Counted from the first letter of the stretch, positions 23,351-28,562 are shown. The stretch: 64,000 nt of DNA from a virus (UHGV-1378516); one strand, 5' to 3'. The notes: generated by a model not told the origin, from the sequence alone. A program made the numbers and translations.

Positions 23351-23426
23351 TGGAGAATCCGAAGGGACTCGAACCCTTATAAACCTGTTTTGCAGACAGG
23401 CACATAGCCATTTCTGTCACGGATTC
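23351..23426 (-). tRNA. tRNA-Cys (GCA)
   Basis: Hand fold: CCA encoded, T-arm AAGGG-ACTCGAA-CCCTT on plus, 5-bp anticodon stem, loop gives GCA. Confidence 0.7.
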
Positions 23427-23430
23427 AAAT

Positions 23431-23523
23431 TGGAGGAAGATACCAGACTTGAACTGGTACACCGATTTCTCAGCTACTGGCAGTTTAGCAAACTGCTCCC
23501 TTACCTTTTAGGGTTAATCTTCC
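23431..23523 (-). tRNA. tRNA-Ser (GCU), long variable arm
   Basis: 93 nt; T-arm ACCAG-ACTTGAA-CTGGT; perfect anticodon stem GCAGT/ACTGC; matching acceptor. Confidence 0.7.
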
Positions 23524-23525
23524 AT

Positions 23526-24260
23526 TTATTTCTGTAATACGTTCTTCATTTCTGGTGTTGCAATAGTGTCAATTACACCAGTTTTACAAGCATCATCAAA
23601 CCAGTCTGGTAAGATACCTGCTAAGAACCCATTGATATTCGTTTTAAGGTACTCTGCAATAAGAGCAGCTTCTTCTTCAATCATCTGCACAACTTCATCT
23701 GCATAAGCTGTAATTTTTGAAATACCTTCATTAATCTTACTAACAGCTTGGTTAGCTAAATCAGAAATAGTATCAAGACCTTTGTCAATAGCGTCTTGTA
23801 AGTCACTTAATACATCATTAACACCGTCTAGTGCACTGTTAATCGTATCAATAGCTTTTTGACCATACTCTGTAGCAACACCCATAATACCACTAAATGG
23901 TGTACAACCAACTTGTTCACCTGCTGCACCCATAACATTAGAATAGCCTTTTGCTACCTGCATACGTGATGAGAACTCATCAATGGACTTTTGACCGTAA
24001 TCTGTCAGTGTTTTGGTAGTTGATGTAGTGCTTGTCAGACTCGTGGTAAAGCTGTTAAGCAGAACTGTTGTGAGTCCAGCAGCAACAAGCTTATCCTTTA
24101 CTGTAGGGTCTGATACAGAGCTAATAGAGCTTACAAGTGATGTAGAGGCAGCTACGGTTCCGCCGAGAACTGCTGCACCAGTAATAAGGGGGTTAGAAAA
24201 CCCTTTACCAGTTTTTAAGAGATTGAAAATCTCCTTACCTTGTTCTGTCATCTCTTTCAT
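23526..24260 (-). CDS. hypothetical Ser/Thr-rich protein embedded in tRNA array
   Basis: Track ORF 23526..24323 begins with GTG overlapping a tRNA; trimmed to in-frame ATG at 24260. Confidence 0.45.
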   Translation of the reverse strand: MKEMTEQGKEIFNLLKTGKGFSNPLITGAAVLGGTVAASTSLVSSISSVSDPTVKDKLVAAGLTTVLLNSFTTSLTSTTSTTKTLTDYGQKSIDEFSSRMQVAKGYSNVMGAAGEQVGCTPFSGIMGVATEYGQKAIDTINSALDGVNDVLSDLQDAIDKGLDTISDLANQAVSKINEGISKITAYADEVVQMIEEEAALIAEYLKTNINGFLAGILPDWFDDACKTGVIDTIATPEMKNVLQK

Positions 24261-24276
24261 TAAGCACCTTTGAAAT

Positions 24277-24353
24277 TGGTAGTCCAGTGGGATTTGAACC
24301 CTCTTCTCATGTTTTTCAGACACGCGCTTTAACCATATAAGCTACTTGGACTA
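24277..24353 (-). tRNA. tRNA-Phe (GAA), tentative
   Basis: T-loop ATTTGAA; perfect acceptor pairing; anticodon stem has one mismatch. Confidence 0.5.
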
Positions 24354-24358
24354 TAAAT

Positions 24359-24435
24359 TGGGGTGACCTACGGGATTTGAACCCGTATAGACCATGTTCA
24401 CAGCATGGGTCATTACCATTTATGATAAGGCCACA
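24359..24435 (-). tRNA. tRNA-His (GUG)
   Basis: Perfect T-stem ACGGG/CCCGT and anticodon stem CCATG/CATGG; loop gives GUG. Confidence 0.7.
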
Positions 24436-24465
24436 TTTAAGGACTCTCGTAAGAATCCTTAGAAG

Positions 24466-24541
24466 TGGCAGCGGCATAAGGATTTGAACCTTAATAGGAC
24501 AGCTTCAGAGACTGTTGCATTGCCAGTTATGCTATACCGCT
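24466..24541 (-). tRNA. tRNA-Gln (CUG), tentative
   Basis: T-arm TAAGG-ATTTGAA-CCTTA; anticodon loop gives CUG; D-arm GCAT/ATGC. Confidence 0.55.
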
Positions 24542-24546
24542 AAATT

Positions 24547-24618
24547 TGGTACTCCATATCGGATTCGAACCGATACATAACACAGATTTTAAGTCTGGCC
24601 TCTCTGCCAATTGGAGTA
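24547..24618 (-). tRNA. tRNA-like, atypical (short D-arm; anticodon possibly UAA)
   Basis: Clear T-arm ATCGG-ATTCGAA-CCGAT and acceptor pairing but only ~72 nt; anticodon arm ambiguous by eye. Confidence 0.35.
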
Positions 24619-24627
24619 ATGGAGCAT

Positions 24628-24703
24628 TGGCGGGGGATGTTGGAATTGAACCAACTTCTTCGATTTCAAAGACCGAGGTTTTAACCTTGTAAACTAATCC
24701 CCT
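24628..24703 (-). tRNA. tRNA-Gln (UUG), tentative
   Basis: T-arm GTTGG-AATTGAA-CCAAC; anticodon loop gives UUG. Confidence 0.55.
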
Positions 24704-24711
24704 TTAAATCT

Positions 24712-25269
24712 TTACTTTCTTAGTGGATGAATAAAGAATGCCAACATAACTCTTTCCCTTGAGAATGCTCTTTCTTCTGGGACAACGCTTTTAAGTTTCC
24801 ACCCAACATAAATTCTCCAGTAAAATTGTTTACCAAAGATTTTGATTGATGGCACAAAAGCGAATAACCCCCAAGCATTACTGTTCCACATTAGGAGATA
24901 ACCAGTTTGATTATCTTCAGGGTTAGAACTTACGTTGATATTACCTTTCCACTTAGTAACGTCTTTTACATCTCTTCCTAACACATGGTAAGAGAAGTTA
25001 TAAGCTTTGTTTCTCCAGAGCCATCCAACTCTCTGCATGTAGACACCAAGCTTACCAATCTTTCTAATCTTAGCCCATCGTTTGATATGACCTGCATCAC
25101 CATCAATTGGGTTGTCATAAGTCTCCATCCATCTGAACCCGAAAGGCAAGTGTCCTTTCTTCTCACTGTAGAATGGAACTACAAAAGGTGCTAAGATAAC
25201 TGCTAAGATTGCTGCAAATGGCTCTAACAAAGCTAAGAAAATCCATGAAGCATACTTTAAGTATCTCAT
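24712..25269 (-). CDS. hypothetical membrane protein embedded in tRNA array
   Basis: 185 aa, hydrophobic N-terminal segments (..WIFLALLEPFAAILAVILAPFVVPF..). Confidence 0.5.
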   Translation of the reverse strand: MRYLKYASWIFLALLEPFAAILAVILAPFVVPFYSEKKGHLPFGFRWMETYDNPIDGDAGHIKRWAKIRKIGKLGVYMQRVGWLWRNKAYNFSYHVLGRDVKDVTKWKGNINVSSNPEDNQTGYLLMWNSNAWGLFAFVPSIKIFGKQFYWRIYVGWKLKSVVPEERAFSRERVMLAFFIHPLRK

Positions 25270-25508
25270 TGTCTAATCCTCGTAAGGAGGTAAATGTTAT
25301 TATTAGTTTCTAAACCTTCTGGTAAAACTGTCTCAAAAATAACACTCTTCAGATGTCTACCACCAAAACAATCACGTATAAATCTTTCTACTCTAGCGGG
25401 GTCACATAAGTATCCCACTTTTAAGAAAATGTGGTGTTCAACACCAATGACCCTGACAAACTCAATACTCTCACAGTTTTCATGTTCAACTACTGTTAAT
25501 GTTTGCAT
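25266..25508 (-). CDS. hypothetical protein
   Basis: 80 aa, ATG at 25508, stop/start overlap with downstream ORF. Confidence 0.45.
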   Translation of the reverse strand: MQTLTVVEHENCESIEFVRVIGVEHHIFLKVGYLCDPARVERFIRDCFGGRHLKSVIFETVLPEGLETNNNIYLLTRIRQ

Positions 25509-25525
25509 AGTATCACCTTTTTATC

Positions 25526-27550: not shown

Positions 27551-27683
27551 ACCAGACCGTTGTTTATCATCTTAAGTGCTACCATTACACCAACTCGACA
27601 TCTGCCGAGTGAAGGAATCGAACCTTCGCCTTTTCTTTACCGGAGAAATAGATTGTTTAAGTTTTGCTGTAAACGGTCTTCTG
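27551..27683 (-). ncRNA. structured spacer unit D (tRNA-like T-arm inside a CCAGACC/GGTCTT-closed domain)
   Basis: ACCAGACCG ... GAAGG-AATCGAA-CCTTC ... CGGTCTTCTG; no matching acceptor stem. Confidence 0.3.
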
Positions 27684-27695
27684 TAAATTTGTTGA

Positions 27696-27770
27696 GCCAG
27701 ACCAAGTTTTAAATTTTCAAAATTAAATTGGCTTGAAATTTCATACGTTCTTGCTGTATTTGGTCTTCTG
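27696..27770 (-). ncRNA. structured spacer unit A
   Basis: GCCAGACCAA ... AU-rich ~50 nt ... TTGGTCTTCTG with compensatory change relative to units B and D. Confidence 0.3.
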
Positions 27771-27831
27771 CTCCTTTAAAGAATACTCGTAAGAACTCTT
27801 TAAGGGAGGGGCTAAATAGCCCTCTCAAAAT

Positions 27832-27909
27832 TGGCGGTTACGAAGGGATTTGAACCCTCATCATCTCCCGTGACAGGGGAGTATTTTAACCAGATTAAAC
27901 TACATAACC
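27832..27909 (-). tRNA. tRNA-Asp (GUC)
   Basis: Perfect anticodon stem CTCCC/GGGAG; loop gives GUC. Confidence 0.7.
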
Positions 27910-27914
27910 TTTAT

Positions 27915-28002
27915 TGGTGTGCCGTGTAGGAGTCGAACCTACCGAGTCTCAATGACAAGGGATTTACAGTCCCCACCGCTACCATCTACGGGATAACGAC
28001 AC
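27915..28002 (-). tRNA. tRNA-Tyr (GUA), long variable arm
   Basis: 88 nt; perfect T-arm GTAGG-AGTCGAA-CCTAC; loop gives GUA. Confidence 0.65.
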
Positions 28003-28071
28003 ATTTAATTTCTATTCAGGCTAAGGACTTGCACCTTACAAATCGGTGAGCAATCGCTTCTCTCCTAAATT

Positions 28072-28148
28072 TGGCGGTTAGTCAGGGATTCGAACCCTGT
28101 GCCATTCGCTTAACAGGCGACCGCACATACCTTATGTGCTTCCTAACC
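28072..28148 (-). tRNA. tRNA-Asn (GUU)
   Basis: Perfect T-arm CAGGG-ATTCGAA-CCCTG; loop gives GUU. Confidence 0.65.
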
Positions 28149-28160
28149 ATGTTTAGTATT

Positions 28161-28226
28161 ACCAGACCGTATCTTTCAATTTTTTCCGCTAAAAATTTAA
28201 TAAATATTGCTGTAAACGGTCTTCTG
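28161..28226 (-). ncRNA. structured spacer unit B
   Basis: ACCAGACCG ... ~48 nt ... CGGTCTTCTG between tRNA-Asn and second CAU tRNA. Confidence 0.3.
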
Positions 28227-28232
28227 TAAATT

Positions 28233-28309
28233 TGGAGGCGGGTGCAGGAGTCGAACCTGCCGATACCATGCTAATGAGACATGTGAGACGCCCTTTCTCT
28301 ATACCCGCA
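28233..28309 (-). tRNA. second CAU-anticodon tRNA (initiator or Ile2 candidate)
   Basis: Perfect T-arm GCAGG-AGTCGAA-CCTGC; loop gives CAU; apparent 1-72 mismatch. Confidence 0.5.
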
Positions 28310-28320
28310 ATTCTTAATGA

Positions 28321-28393
28321 CCAGACCAAATCTCTTCTTTGTCCGATTTACCTTCAGATGAATAAGATTAAGTTTGCTGTAATTGGTCTTCTG
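28321..28393 (-). ncRNA. structured spacer unit C
   Basis: CCAGACCAA ... ~55 nt ... TTGGTCTTCTG between second CAU tRNA and tRNA-Glu. Confidence 0.3.
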
Positions 28394-28400
28394 TCAAAAC

Positions 28401-28478
28401 TGGCGTTCCAGAAGGGATTTGAACCCTCAAATATCCACTTTGAAAGAGTGGTGACTTTACCATTTTGTCTACTGGAAC
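28401..28478 (-). tRNA. tRNA-Glu (UUC)
   Basis: Perfect anticodon stem CCACT/AGTGG and acceptor; loop gives UUC. Confidence 0.7.
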
Positions 28479-28485
28479 ATTAATT

Positions 28486-28562
28486 TGGTCTCTGTTGGAG
28501 GACTTGAACCTCCGGCCTTACCGCCCCAAACGGAACGCTCTACCAAGCTGAGCTAAACAGAG
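28486..28562 (-). tRNA. tRNA-Pro (UGG)
   Basis: Perfect T-arm GGAGG-ACTTGAA-CCTCC and acceptor; loop gives UGG. Confidence 0.65.

What the first reader, a model, noticed from the sequence alone, without database searches (positions are those of the whole stretch)
23351..28562. About 27 tRNA genes in one minus-strand array, apparently covering all 20 amino acids
Hand folding finds 27 tRNA-like genes with the reverse-complemented T-loop signature (GG)ATTCGAA(CC) and paired acceptor stems: Cys, Ser x2, Phe, His, Gln x2, Arg x2, Val, Thr, Gly, Ala, Lys x2, Ile, Met, a second CAU, Asp, Tyr, Asn, Glu, Pro, three Leu-type anticodons and a possible Trp. The array has its own promoters (28681-28709, 27126-27154), at least three terminators and three embedded protein genes.
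Basis: seen in the sequence. Interest (0 to 1): 0.5.

Follow-up and report, generated by a model that had tools for sequence, protein, structure and literature searches.

The report
Phage tRNA array with Y-like RNAs
This is the already-annotated cluster of about 26 tRNA genes of a FelixO1-like E. coli phage, but four gaps between the tRNAs hold small structured RNAs that look like the unidentified RNA partners of the Ro60-like protein encoded next door and carry the signature of an RNA class so far reported only in social amoebae.

Summary
The 27th ("Trp", 26622-26704) is missed by both tools, but it is a conserved tRNA-like gene with anticodon CCA and compensatory changes in three stems.

The window is a Felixounavirus, and RefSeq relatives annotate the same 26 tRNAs and three ORFs, so the array itself is known. 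Its tRNAs read A-ending codons that are common in the phage and rare in E. coli.

New here: four units inside the array (28320-28391, 28161-28224, 27696-27768, 27551-27681) share a terminal stem followed by UACAGCAA. The fourth encloses a permuted tRNA-like domain, as in YrlA. The upstream gene (28728-30143, DUF2828) models as a Ro60 fold.

A covariance model built only from distant phages finds the window's units. Across 161 DUF2828 loci from phages and bacteria, 150 of 152 hits lie on the gene's strand, beside the gene, with a strongly covarying stem.

The only recurring Rfam match, below threshold, is the Dictyostelium Class I RNA, which has the same architecture and motif. Binding and expression are untested.

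The parts
28728..30143 (-). Ro60-like protein gene (DUF2828 + DUF7788/vWA; PHROG 850 'RNA-binding protein'), directly upstream of the array
   Evidence: Pfam, PHROGs. AF2 model with MSA, pLDDT 87. The top 12 PDB fold hits are all Ro60/Rsr/TROVE, TM up to 0.65, E 5e-8.
28681..28709 (-). sigma-70-like promoter (TTGACA-17-TAATAT) inside a hairpin just after the Ro60-like gene stop
   Evidence: 10/12 match; consensus only
28589..28618 (-). second sigma-70-like promoter (TTGACA-18-TAAAGT, extended -10 TG) 27 nt upstream of tRNA-Pro
28486..28562 (-). tRNA-Pro (UGG)
28401..28478 (-). tRNA-Glu (UUC)
28320..28391 (-). Y-like / Class-I-like RNA unit a: AGACCAA|UUACAGCAA...|UUGGUCU|G
   Evidence: RF01414 19.7 bits; R1 22 bits, E 4.7e-3; R2 39.3 bits
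28233..28309 (-). aberrant CAU tRNA-like gene ('second CAU'), lying between units a and b
   Evidence: ARAGORN only; no Rfam tRNA hit. T stem covaries in relatives. U at position 37 and a 1:72 mismatch. The ortholog in phage Sf14 has low scores for every isotype.
28161..28224 (-). Y-like / Class-I-like RNA unit b: AGACCGU|UUACAGCAA...|ACGGUCU|G
   Evidence: RF01414 20.5 bits; R1 27.6 bits, E 1.6e-4; R2 42.3 bits
28072..28148 (-). tRNA-Asn (GUU)
27915..28002 (-). tRNA-Tyr (GUA), class II
   Evidence: Rfam below the tRNA gathering score; 83-87% identical to annotated T4-like tRNA-Tyr genes
27832..27909 (-). tRNA-Asp (GUC)
27696..27768 (-). Y-like / Class-I-like RNA unit c: AGACCAA|AUACAGCAA...|UUGGUCU|G
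   Evidence: R1 11.5 bits; R2 35.6 bits, E 9e-6
27551..27681 (-). YrlA-like RNA unit d: the same terminal stem and UUACAGCAA, enclosing a V hairpin, T arm (GAAGG UUCGAUU CCUUC), closed acceptor-like hairpin and D arm
   Evidence: R2 38.2 bits. The acceptor-like hairpin occurs in three compensating versions in relatives.
27328..27403 (-). tRNA-Lys (UUU)
27247..27323 (-). tRNA with anticodon CAU (Met or Ile2; not resolved)
   Evidence: no E. coli match by blastn
27170..27245 (-). tRNA-Ile (GAU)
27126..27154 (-). internal sigma-70-like promoter (TTGACA-17-TATAGT)
   Evidence: 11/12, the best match in the region
26847..26923 (-). tRNA-Arg (UCU), reads AGA/AGG
   Evidence: AGA is 18.0 per 1000 codons in the phage against 1.1-2.4 in the host sample
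26622..26704 (-). aberrant tRNA-Trp-like gene (CCA anticodon, A1-U72, G73, encoded CCA; about 8 extra nt before a 3-bp D stem)
   Evidence: tRNA-Sec 23 bits; compensatory changes in three stems; not called by ARAGORN
26519..26608 (-). tRNA-Ser (UGA), class II
26345..26365 (-). terminator-like hairpin with U run
26186..26264 (-). tRNA-Leu (UAG), short variable loop
26103..26178 (-). tRNA-Lys (CUU)
26021..26096 (-). tRNA-Ala (UGC)
25940..26014 (-). tRNA-Gly (UCC)
25857..25932 (-). tRNA-Thr (UGU)
25686..25760 (-). tRNA-Val (UAC)
25607..25684 (-). tRNA-Leu (CAA), short variable loop
25526..25601 (-). tRNA-Arg (ACG)
25266..25508 (-). embedded ORF, 80 aa, phrog_14202, function unknown
24712..25269 (-). 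embedded ORF, 185 aa, DUF7338
24628..24703 (-). tRNA-Gln (UUG)
24547..24625 (-). tRNA-Leu (UAA), short variable loop
24466..24541 (-). tRNA-Gln (CUG)
24359..24434 (-). tRNA-His (GUG)
24277..24352 (-). tRNA-Phe (GAA)
23526..24260 (-). embedded ORF, 244 aa, DUF7217
23431..23523 (-). tRNA-Ser (GCU), class II
23351..23426 (-). tRNA-Cys (GCA), last gene of the array
23171..23188 (-). intrinsic-terminator-like hairpin with U run downstream of the array

Best explanation
What it is. The region is the tRNA gene cluster of a Felixounavirus (a FelixO1-like E. coli myophage). It holds 26 co-oriented tRNA genes plus one aberrant tRNA-Trp-like gene, interrupted by three small ORFs.

How the tRNAs probably work (inferred). 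The cluster is transcribed from sigma-70-like promoters that follow the upstream gene, and host tRNA-processing enzymes release the individual tRNAs. Shown here: the set is dominated by U34 tRNAs that read A-ending codons, and those codons (AGA, UUA, CUA, ACA, UCA, CCA, CAA) are frequent in this 39% G+C phage and rare in E. coli. The tRNAs therefore most likely sustain late phage translation, and may also replace host tRNAs destroyed by defence nucleases.

The second class of genes (shown). The 5' third of the array also encodes four small RNAs that are not tRNAs. Each is closed by a terminal helix (AGACCNN / NNGGUCU), followed on the 5' side by an invariant single-stranded UACAGCAA and on the 3' side by an unpaired G. 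Three have short A/U-rich interiors. The fourth encloses a circularly permuted tRNA-like domain (T arm, closed acceptor-like hairpin, D arm), which is the YrlA Y-RNA architecture. These units belong to an RNA family that is genomically coupled to DUF2828 genes, on the same strand and usually in tandem, in many unrelated phages and bacteria, often together with tRNA genes. The DUF2828 protein encoded immediately upstream of the array has a Ro60 fold.

Proposed mechanism (inferred). The four RNAs are cut out of the tRNA precursor by the flanking tRNA processing. The Ro60-like protein binds them through the stem plus UACAGCAA module, as Y RNAs bind Ro60/Rsr. The resulting RNP acts in RNA surveillance or in anti-defence; the Bas63 ortholog gp130 counters the Ppl defence system.
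For: tRNAs:
- 26 by ARAGORN, 24 by Rfam.
- The same genes are annotated in 98%-identical RefSeq phages, and about 230 phage records cover at least 80% of the region.
- A related Ounavirinae phage, Sf14, is published with 26 tRNAs for 19 amino acids (PMC12482277).
- The Trp-like gene has compensatory changes in three stems.
- Codon match, per 1000 codons, phage against host sample: AGA 18.0 vs 1.1-2.4; UUA 22.7 vs 3.3-15.3; CUA 8.9 vs 0.4-4.0; ACA 25 vs 3.6-9.4.

RNA units:
- The motif AGAAGACC-N3-TACAGCAA occurs 4 times against 0.09 expected.
- All four units fold to the same closing helix, and the paralogs differ by compensating changes.
- Model R1, built only from 9 units of distant IMG/VR phages, hits window units b and a at E 1.6e-4 and 4.7e-3.
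- Model R2, run exhaustively on the whole window, gives exactly these four hits (35.6-42.3 bits; the next best is 14.6).
- R1 finds 79 hits in 81 viral DUF2828 loci, 78 on the gene strand, and 73 hits in 80 bacterial/MAG loci, 72 on the gene strand. Most lie within a few hundred nt of the gene.
- The stem is 97.8% paired, with 195 double-change cells against 60 +/- 7 in shuffles; slid controls reach at most 45%.
- G, C, A, G, C, A, A of the motif and the unpaired 3' G are 93-100% conserved over 74 distinct sequences.
- tRNA-like interiors recur in L104, L058, L077, L060, L128 and L053, and Rfam's YrlA model hits the last two at 37.7-39.2 bits.

Protein and context:
- Ro60 fold.
- Bas63 gp130 is described as Ro60-like, upstream of the tRNAs and a Ppl counter (PMC11482910).
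- 197 of 198 tRNAs near DUF2828 genes are co-oriented with the gene.
Against: - There are no expression, processing or binding data for the four units.
- None reaches an Rfam gathering score (RF01414 20.5 bits at most in the window; no YrlA hit in the window).
- The 5' motif differs from the known Ro/Rsr-binding motifs GGUCCGA and GNCGAAG (PMC4201824).
- At sequence level the protein is not a TROVE-family member (Pfam gives DUF2828; profile against Ro60 gives E 0.46).
- Gp130 alone, from a plasmid or moved into T7, counters Ppl, so that activity does not obviously need the phage RNAs.
- Alignment A7 was fitted to the model, which inflates pairing counts, and E-values from the short calibration are rough.
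- The promoter calls are not above chance.
- The codon comparison uses a single 49-kb host sample and heuristic phage ORFs.
Confidence: 0.8

Rival explanations
1. The array is only a tRNA array. The four stem-loop units are spacers, processing signals or weak terminators that help cut the polycistronic precursor, and have no function of their own.
For: They lie in tRNA-tRNA gaps, 5-12 nt from tRNA ends. Their thermodynamic z-scores are modest (-0.4 to -2.0). No expression data exist.
Against: The same stem plus invariant UACAGCAA plus 3' G is found next to DUF2828 genes in phages and bacteria whose proteins are only 29-48% identical to the window's, including loci with no tRNA nearby. Strand bias is 150 of 152 and covariation is strong. 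The units lack U tracts. One unit carries an elaborate conserved tRNA-like domain.
Confidence: 0.07
2. The units are cis-regulatory or autoregulatory binding sites for the DUF2828 protein on its own transcript (a leader or trailer), not independent trans-acting RNAs.
For: In bacterial loci they usually sit within 500 nt upstream of the gene start, and in many phage loci directly after the stop codon.
Against: In the window they are 340-1180 nt downstream of the gene, beyond two promoter-like sites and two tRNA genes. They occur in tandems of 2-4 with diverged interiors, like multi-copy Y RNAs, and some carry YrlA-type tRNA-like domains that Rfam's YrlA model recognises.
Confidence: 0.1
3. The main role of the tRNA set is not codon compensation. 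It replaces host tRNAs cleaved or depleted by anti-phage tRNases, and the Ro60-like RNP is part of the same tRNA-centred counter-defence (surveillance or repair of damaged tRNA). This is compatible with the anatomy described above; it is a rival only for function.
For: The set is nearly complete (19-20 amino acids), more than rare-codon supply needs. The published hypothesis and examples are in PMC10264068. The Ro60-like ortholog is an experimentally shown defence counter. Rsr/YrlA sit in a tRNA-damage-induced RNA-repair operon in Salmonella (PMC7790460). DUF2828 genes co-occur with co-oriented tRNA genes in 54 of 157 loci.
Against: The anticodon choice tracks phage-enriched codons very well. 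Ppl is proposed to act on DNA, not tRNA. No anticodon-loop resistance analysis was done here.
Confidence: 0.3
4. The resemblance to Dictyostelium Class I RNAs is convergence or chance. The phage and bacterial RNAs are a prokaryote-specific Y-RNA variant unrelated to the amoebal class.
For: All RF01414 hits are below the gathering score (12.8-30.7 bits against 41.5). The only Class I binder named in the papers I could read, Rnp1A, is an RRM protein, not a Ro-like one (PMC7919456). I could not establish whether Dictyostelia encode DUF2828.
Against: The two share a 9-10-nt motif at the same structural position, the same 5' G and 3' C-U-G, a 6-7-bp terminal stem, an A/U-rich variable interior and the same median length (63 against about 60 nt). 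The positions invariant in Dictyostelia (C6, C9, A10, A11) are the 97-100% conserved ones here. RF01414 is the only Rfam family besides YrlA that hits these units.
Confidence: 0.5

Closest known systems
tRNA gene clusters of Ounavirinae (FelixO1, wV8, Escherichia typing phage 1, Shigella phage Sf14)
   Same: Same genes in the same order. NC_041979 annotates the identical 26 tRNAs and 3 CDS at 98% identity. Sf14 is published with 26 tRNAs for 19 amino acids.
   Different: Nothing differs for the tRNAs. The annotations do not include the Trp-like gene or the four non-tRNA units.
Rsr (bacterial Ro60) with YrlA/YrlB Y RNAs (Salmonella, Mycobacterium phages; Chen et al. 2014, PMC4201824; Rfam RF02553)
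   Same: A Ro60-fold protein gene lies next to tandem small RNAs. One RNA has a terminal stem enclosing V, T arm, closed acceptor-like stem-loop and D arm in the same 5'-to-3' order, with shorter companions lacking the tRNA-like part. A YUAY-like CUUAC follows the 5' motif.
   Different: The protein belongs to Pfam DUF2828/DUF7788, not TROVE. The 5' recognition motif is UACAGCAA next to the stem, not GNCGAAG. Rfam's YrlA model gives no hit in the window and only about 38 bits (gathering score 69) elsewhere. The RNAs are embedded in a tRNA array.
Dictyostelium Class I RNAs (Rfam RF01414; Aspegren 2004; Kjellin 2021, PMC7919456)
   Same: A short terminal stem joins the 5' and 3' ends. The conserved motif (CC)UUACAGCAA abuts the 5' arm. 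There is a 5' G and a 3' CUG, a variable A/U-rich interior, a length of about 60 nt and many paralogous copies.
   Different: Class I RNAs are eukaryotic, Pol-transcribed from DUSE promoters, and reported as unique to Dictyostelia. Their named binder is the RRM protein Rnp1A. The phage units score below the family threshold, and one carries a tRNA-like insert.
Bas63 gp130 (PhageMaP preprint, PMC11482910)
   Same: A Felixounavirus gene with a Ro60-like structure directly upstream of the tRNA genes. It is orthologous by synteny, which I inferred and did not align.
   Different: That work only speculated that 'some tRNA genes are possibly Y RNAs'. The candidate partner RNAs identified here are in the gaps between tRNAs. 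It showed anti-Ppl activity of the protein alone.
Phage T4 tRNA cluster with two small stable RNAs of unknown function (species 1 and 2 / RNAs C and D); cited from memory, not checked here
   Same: A phage tRNA operon that also yields non-tRNA small stable RNAs released by tRNA-processing enzymes.
   Different: No Ro60-like gene is known next to the T4 cluster, and no sequence relation was tested.

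Membership tests
Bacterial-type tRNA genes in a phage tRNA cluster | Cloverleaf recognised by two independent detectors | tested here: met
   26 by ARAGORN and 24 by Rfam at the gathering score. Tyr and the second CAU are ARAGORN-only. The Trp-like gene is called by neither.
Bacterial-type tRNA genes in a phage tRNA cluster | Conserved as annotated tRNA genes in related genomes | tested here: met
   NC_041979 annotates the same 26. 234 phage records cover at least 80% of the region.
Bacterial-type tRNA genes in a phage tRNA cluster | Expression, processing and aminoacylation | not testable with these tools
   No RNA data. 25 of 26 encode a 3' CCA.
tRNA-Trp (for 26622-26704) | Canonical cloverleaf with CCA anticodon and the Trp identity set (A1-U72, G73; E. 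coli rules recalled from memory) | tested here: inconclusive
   The anticodon loop CUCCAAA, A1-U72, G73 and CCA are present, and three stems covary. However, there are about 8 extra nt before a 3-bp D stem and a C31-A39 mismatch, and ARAGORN and Rfam do not call it.
Ro60/Rsr (TROVE + vWA) proteins | HEAT-repeat ring plus vWA fold | tested here: met
   The top 12 Foldseek PDB hits are all Ro60/Rsr/TROVE over the full length (TMq 0.41-0.65, E 5e-8 to 1.6e-6). Everything below them matches only the vWA domain. The model has pLDDT 87.
Ro60/Rsr (TROVE + vWA) proteins | Sequence membership of Pfam TROVE | tested here: not met
   Pfam gives DUF2828, DUF7788 and a weak VWA_2 match. phmmer against PDB finds nothing. 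The profile against Ro60 gives E 0.46, in the vWA part only.
Ro60/Rsr (TROVE + vWA) proteins | Binds Y RNA on the ring surface | not testable with these tools
   No binding data.
YrlA-type bacterial Y RNA (RF02553) | Encoded adjacent to a Ro60 ortholog | tested here: met
   Units lie 340-1180 nt downstream of the Ro60-fold gene on the same strand. The same linkage holds in 150 of 152 hits elsewhere.
YrlA-type bacterial Y RNA (RF02553) | Terminal stem enclosing V, T arm, closed acceptor-like stem-loop and D arm | tested here: met
   Unit d, 27551-27681. The acceptor-like hairpin covaries.
YrlA-type bacterial Y RNA (RF02553) | 5' GNCGAAN0-1G Rsr-binding motif | tested here: not met
   It is replaced by stem + UACAGCAA.
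YrlA-type bacterial Y RNA (RF02553) | Rfam gathering score (69 bits) | tested here: not met
   No YrlA hit on unit d even at E<=10. 37.7 and 39.2 bits in L128 and L053.
Dictyostelium Class I RNA (RF01414) | Short stem joining the 5' and 3' ends | tested here: met
   A 7-bp stem, 97.8% paired, with all pairs showing compensatory changes.
Dictyostelium Class I RNA (RF01414) | 11-nt motif CCUUACAGCAA adjacent to the 5' arm (T3, C6, C9, A10, A11 invariant) | tested here: met
   UUACAGCAA in units a, b and d, and AUACAGCAA in unit c. In the family, C6 is 99%, C9 100%, A10 99% and A11 97% conserved; T3 is only 56%.
Dictyostelium Class I RNA (RF01414) | Length 42-65 nt; 5' G and 3' CUGU | tested here: inconclusive
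   The family median is 63 nt, but the window units are 64-73 nt and 131 nt. The 5' G is 94% conserved. The 3' end is C-U-G followed by a variable base.
Dictyostelium Class I RNA (RF01414) | Rfam gathering score (41.5 bits) | tested here: not met
   20.5, 19.7 and 12.8 bits in the window. The best elsewhere are 30.7 and 28.1 bits.
Dictyostelium Class I RNA (RF01414) | DUSE promoter about 60 nt upstream; a Dictyostelid genome | tested here: not met
   This is a phage genome. The units are embedded in a bacterial-type tRNA operon.

The most novel reading that the evidence does not exclude
The stem + UACAGCAA RNAs found here next to DUF2828 genes in phages and bacteria, and the Dictyostelid Class I RNAs, may be one ancient RNA family: the cognate ligands of DUF2828 proteins, a structural paralog of Ro60. 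That would define a second Ro/Y-type ribonucleoprotein system spanning viruses, bacteria and eukaryotes. It would predict the long-sought protein partner and biochemical role of Class I RNAs, and it would identify the RNA cofactors of a phage counter-defence protein (the Bas63 gp130 family).
Probability: 0.35. Interest if true: 0.85.

Novelty: new variant of a known kind. Interest (0 to 1): 0.62.

Why it matters
The tRNA array itself is textbook phage biology and is already annotated.

What would matter is the following. Large phage 'tRNA arrays' are usually treated as lists of tRNAs. Here the array also carries a distinct, widely conserved small-RNA family tied to a Ro60-like protein that has been shown experimentally, in a sister phage, to defeat a bacterial defence system.

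That gives concrete RNA candidates, with coordinates, a motif and a covariance model, for a protein family (DUF2828, thousands of homologs) that has no known ligand. It extends Ro/Y-RNA biology to a new protein-RNA pair.

It also offers a testable hypothesis for Dictyostelium Class I RNAs, whose molecular function has been open since 2004 and which were reported to have no relatives outside Dictyostelia.

Tried and rejected
1. Alternative pairing in which GGUCUGG lies 5' and AGAAGACC lies 3' of a tRNA, so that the tRNA is flanked by a Ro-type stem. Rejected: the base pairs extending each helix are complementary only within a unit (AA/UU, GU/AC, GUU/AAC), not between neighbouring units.

2. My first enrichment test, which required ACAGCAA plus any stem of at least 6 bp within 220 nt and compared it with 105 permuted motifs. 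It was uninformative because the stem filter passes about 60% of random occurrences. Covariance-model searches replaced it.

3. The single-sequence AlphaFold model was unusable (pLDDT 45). I redid it with a 40-sequence alignment.

4. The afdb50 fold library was unavailable, so I could not look for Dictyostelium or other eukaryotic DUF2828 structures.

5. Avesson et al. 2011, which lists the four Class I-binding proteins, is not held.

6. MAFFT repeatedly put the 3' arms out of register. I seeded the model with the 9 sequences that were in register.

7. ARAGORN at 85% thresholds still does not call the Trp-like gene.

8. blastn of the first CAU tRNA against E. coli genomes gave no match, so Met versus Ile2 is unresolved.

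9. Rfam weak hits to tmRNA, permuted tmRNA, Plastid-ycf2, miRNA and similar families in the array are explained by tRNA-like pieces or antisense tRNAs, and I did not pursue them.

10. The R1 hit at 31555-31609(+) has mismatched stem pairs and CCAGCAA instead of ACAGCAA, and falls to 10 bits with R2. I treat it as false.

Full report
**Identity of the window and check of the observation**

Megablast of 23000-29000 finds 403 phage records. 234 of them cover at least 80% of the query, and the best are Felixounavirus genomes at 96-98.6% identity: AN17P8, Escherichia typing phage 1 and wV8.

ARAGORN reports 26 tRNA genes in the 64-kb window. Rfam's tRNA model passes its gathering score for 24 of them. 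The two exceptions:
- tRNA-Tyr is taken by the tRNA-Sec model at 29.6 bits, but it is 83-87% identical to annotated tRNA-Tyr genes of T4-like phages.
- The CAU gene at 28233-28309 gets no tRNA hit at all.

RefSeq NC_041979 annotates the same 26 tRNAs and the same three CDS. The three ORFs match DUF7217, DUF7338 and phrog_14202, all of unknown function. A related Ounavirinae phage, Sf14, is published with 26 tRNAs for 19 amino acids (PMC12482277).

**The 27th gene and the odd tRNAs**

Neither tool calls a tRNA-Trp, even at relaxed ARAGORN thresholds. At 26622-26704(-), however, there is an 83-nt cloverleaf-like sequence. It has the anticodon loop CUCCAAA, an A1-U72 pair, discriminator G73 and an encoded CCA.

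It is present in every Felixounavirus locus I fetched, and relatives show compensatory changes in three helices:
- D stem: CTC/GAG becomes CAC/GTG.
- Anticodon stem: AACGG/CCGTT becomes GTAAG/CTTAC.
- T stem: a G-C pair becomes T-A.

Its defects are about 8 extra nucleotides before a 3-bp D stem and a C31-A39 mismatch. I regard it as a functional but non-canonical tRNA-Trp-like gene. 'All 20 amino acids' is therefore plausible but unproven.

The second CAU gene also has a covarying T stem. It has U at position 37 and a mismatched 1:72 pair, and its ortholog in Sf14 scores low for every isotype. The three Leu-anticodon tRNAs are only 78-79 nt long with short variable loops, whereas Ser and Tyr are normal class II tRNAs.

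**Function of the tRNA set**

I compared 65 long phage ORFs (15,885 codons) with a 49-kb E. coli K-12 sample split into highly expressed and other genes. The phage tRNAs, mostly U34 readers of A-ending codons, correspond to codons strongly enriched in the phage:

| Codon | Phage, per 1000 | Host sample, per 1000 |
|---|---|---|
| AGA | 18.0 | 1.1 / 2.4 |
| UUA | 22.7 | 3.3 / 15.3 |
| CUA | 8.9 | 0.4 / 4.0 |
| ACA | 25.0 | 3.6 / 9.4 |
| UCA | 18.6 | 1.8 / 9.0 |
| CCA | 16.3 | 5.3 / 8.6 |

This supports classical codon compensation. The near-complete set is also compatible with the hypothesis that phage tRNAs replace host tRNAs depleted by defence tRNases (PMC10264068). I could not separate the two.

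Terminator-like hairpins in sensible places are at 23171-23188, 26345-26365 and 28686-28717.

**What else is in the array**

Reading the minus strand showed a repeat, ACAGAAGACC-NNN-UACAGCAA ... GGUCUGG, four times. The motif is expected 0.09 times by chance.

Each copy folds into the same closing structure:
- an outer 3-4-bp helix;
- an AGA/G internal loop;
- an inner helix AGACC+NN / NN+GGUCU;
- single-stranded UACAGCAA immediately after the 5' arm.

The paralogs differ by compensating changes: UGAC/GUCA against UUAC/GUAA against AGC/GCU in the outer helix, and AA/UU against GU/AC against GUU/AAC in the inner one.

Units a, b and c (28320-28391, 28161-28224, 27696-27768) have short A/U-rich interiors. 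Unit d (27551-27681) encloses a small hairpin, a perfect T arm (GAAGG UUCGAUU CCUUC), a closed acceptor-like hairpin and a D arm. This is the 5'-to-3' order described for the bacterial Y RNA YrlA (PMC4201824). In relatives the acceptor-like hairpin exists in three different, fully paired versions, while the T and D arms are conserved.

**The neighbouring gene**

The ORF immediately upstream (28728-30143) matches Pfam DUF2828 and DUF7788, with a weak vWA match. It belongs to PHROG 850, 'RNA-binding protein', and has no sequence-level match in the PDB.

An AlphaFold model built with a 40-sequence alignment has pLDDT 87. Its twelve best Foldseek matches in the PDB are all Ro60, Rsr or TROVE structures over the full length (TM up to 0.65, E 5e-8). 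Everything below them matches only the vWA domain.

A 2024 preprint reached the same structural conclusion for Bas63 gp130. Bas63 is a Felixounavirus, and the gene is 'directly upstream' of its tRNA genes. The preprint showed that gp130 counters the Ppl defence system, also when expressed alone or moved into T7. It only speculated that some of the tRNA genes might be Y RNAs (PMC11482910).

**Is the RNA-protein gene linkage general?**

A very distant DUF2828 locus, L030 (29% protein identity, AT-rich), has four tRNAs and then three tandem hairpins before the gene: GAGCAC|UUACAGCAA...GUGCUC, GAACGC|UUACAGCAA...GCGUUC and UGGACAUAU|ACAGCAA...AUAUGUCCA.

I fetched 80 further viral loci and 80 bacterial/MAG loci that encode DUF2828 proteins. 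I then built covariance model R1 from nine units of distant IMG/VR phages, with no Felixounavirus sequences in it.

Results with R1:
- It finds window units b and a at E 1.6e-4 and 4.7e-3, and partial matches to d and c.
- It finds 79 hits in the viral loci, 78 on the gene's strand, and 73 hits in the bacterial loci, 72 on the gene's strand. Most lie within a few hundred nt of the gene ends, often 2-4 in tandem.

On the 74 distinct aligned sequences:
- The 7-bp stem is 97.8% paired. It has 195 double-change cells against 60 +/- 7 in shuffles, and slid controls reach at most 45%. The caveat is that the alignment was fitted to the model.
- The motif bases C, A, G, C, A, A and the unpaired G after the 3' arm are 93-100% conserved. 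The median length is 63 nt.

A second-generation model, R2, was run without filters over the whole window on both strands. It gives exactly four significant hits, the four units (35.6-42.3 bits); the next best hit is 14.6 bits.

Long units with tRNA-like interiors recur in unrelated loci (L104, L058, L077, L060, L128, L053). Rfam's YrlA model hits the last two at 37.7-39.2 bits, below its threshold of 69.

tRNA genes accompany DUF2828 genes in 54 of 157 loci, and 197 of the 198 tRNAs are on the gene's strand.

**Comparison with known families**

Rfam contains no family that claims these units. The only recurring match is the Dictyostelium Class I RNA family (RF01414):

| Where | Bits (gathering score 41.5) |
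|---|---|
| Window | 20.5, 19.7, 12.8 |
| L030 | 17.3, 14.7 |
| L073, L140 | 30.7, 28.1 |

The Rfam consensus GaUcuC|CUUACAGCAAU...|GagAuC|UG aligns with the phage GACCGU|UUACAGCAAU...|ACGGUC|UG.

Kjellin et al. define Class I RNAs by exactly these features: a short stem joining the ends, an 11-nt motif adjacent to the 5' arm, a 5' G, a 3' CUGU, a variable interior and a length of about 60 nt. They report that no relatives exist outside Dictyostelia (PMC7919456). The motif positions invariant in Dictyostelia (C6, C9, A10, A11) are the ones that are 97-100% conserved here.

No paper in the held library links Ro60, DUF2828 and Class I RNAs.

Membership in either YrlA or Class I fails by Rfam thresholds, and by the 5' motif in the case of YrlA. 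I therefore file the units as a new variant of the Ro60/Y-RNA kind. They work like Y RNAs and may be homologous to Class I RNAs.

**Mechanism, with shown and inferred steps**

Shown:
- the tRNA genes and their codon match;
- the four structured units, their family-wide covariation, and their strand and position linkage to DUF2828 genes;
- the Ro60 fold of the neighbouring protein.

Published for an ortholog that I assigned by synteny: anti-Ppl activity of the protein.

Inferred:
- co-transcription of the units with the tRNAs from the promoters after the Ro60-like gene;
- release of the units by RNase P and 3' processing of the flanking tRNAs (the units lie 5-12 nt from tRNA ends);
- binding of the stem + UACAGCAA module by the Ro60-like ring;
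- a role of the resulting RNP in RNA surveillance or counter-defence.

The main evidence against is that gp130 works without phage RNAs in T7 and that no expression or binding data exist.

**Verdict**

The finding as written is correct and ordinary: the array is already annotated. The added value is that the array is a mixed tRNA and Y-like-RNA operon attached to a Ro60-like gene, that this RNA family is widespread and apparently undescribed, and that it is strikingly similar to Dictyostelium Class I RNAs.

Noticed in passing
window 24547-24625, 25607-25684, 26186-26264 (minus strand): All three tRNAs with Leu anticodons (UAA, CAA, UAG) are only 78-79 nt long, with a 7-8-nt variable loop and A73. 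This is class-I-like, whereas bacterial tRNA-Leu is normally class II with a long variable arm. The array's Ser and Tyr tRNAs are normal class II (88-93 nt). Whether LeuRS charges them is unknown.
   Followed up: partly
window 28233-28309 (minus strand): The 'second CAU tRNA' sits exactly between Y-like units a and b. It gets no Rfam tRNA hit, has U37 and a mismatched 1:72 pair, yet is conserved with a covarying T stem. It may be a tRNA-like RNA rather than a decoding tRNA.
   Followed up: partly
window 27404-27550 (minus strand): A 147-nt element between unit d and tRNA-Lys folds into a multi-branched structure closed by a helix of about 24 bp (MFE -48.8 kcal/mol, z -5.5, 0 of 200 shuffles). 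It is conserved at 94-99% in close relatives and matches no Rfam family.
   Followed up: partly
window 26264-26372 (minus strand): A terminator-like hairpin (26345-26365) is followed by, and overlaps, a long hairpin with a stem of about 26 bp (z -4.9) directly upstream of tRNA-Leu(UAG). A diverged relative (L021) keeps the hairpin with changed sequence.
   Followed up: partly
window 26924-27125 (minus strand): A roughly 200-nt stretch between the internal promoter (27126-27154) and tRNA-Arg(UCU) is at least 98.5% identical in the close relatives listed. It has no ORF of note and only weak tmRNA-like Rfam hits. It may be another non-coding RNA.
   Followed up: partly
L140 1007-1068: A freshwater-1 RNA (Rfam RF02979, 82.7 bits, above its gathering score), an orphan metagenomic motif, lies inside a DUF2828-associated array of tRNAs and Class-I-like units in a Micavibrio MAG. 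This suggests it may belong to the same system.
   Followed up: no
L174 1513-1629, 1845-1967, 2052-2166 and L140 796-904: tRNA-model hits of 109-123 nt (tRNAs with large insertions, or tRNA-like RNAs) lie directly upstream of DUF2828 genes in a complete Clostridiales genome and in a Micavibrio MAG.
   Followed up: no
DUF2828 loci L029-L193: Among the 198 tRNAs flanking DUF2828 genes, ARAGORN calls three with anticodon UUA (ochre-suppressor type) and eight tRNA-Ile(UAU). 197 of the 198 tRNAs are on the DUF2828 gene's strand.
   Followed up: no
window 26519-26608 (minus strand): tRNA-Ser(UGA) is the only tRNA in the array without a fully encoded 3' CCA; it ends ...GCC followed by U.
   Followed up: no
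window 28686-28717 (minus strand): The hairpin right after the Ro60-like gene's stop codon contains the -35 TTGACA of the first array promoter in its loop. A terminator-like element and a promoter-like element overlap here.
   Followed up: no
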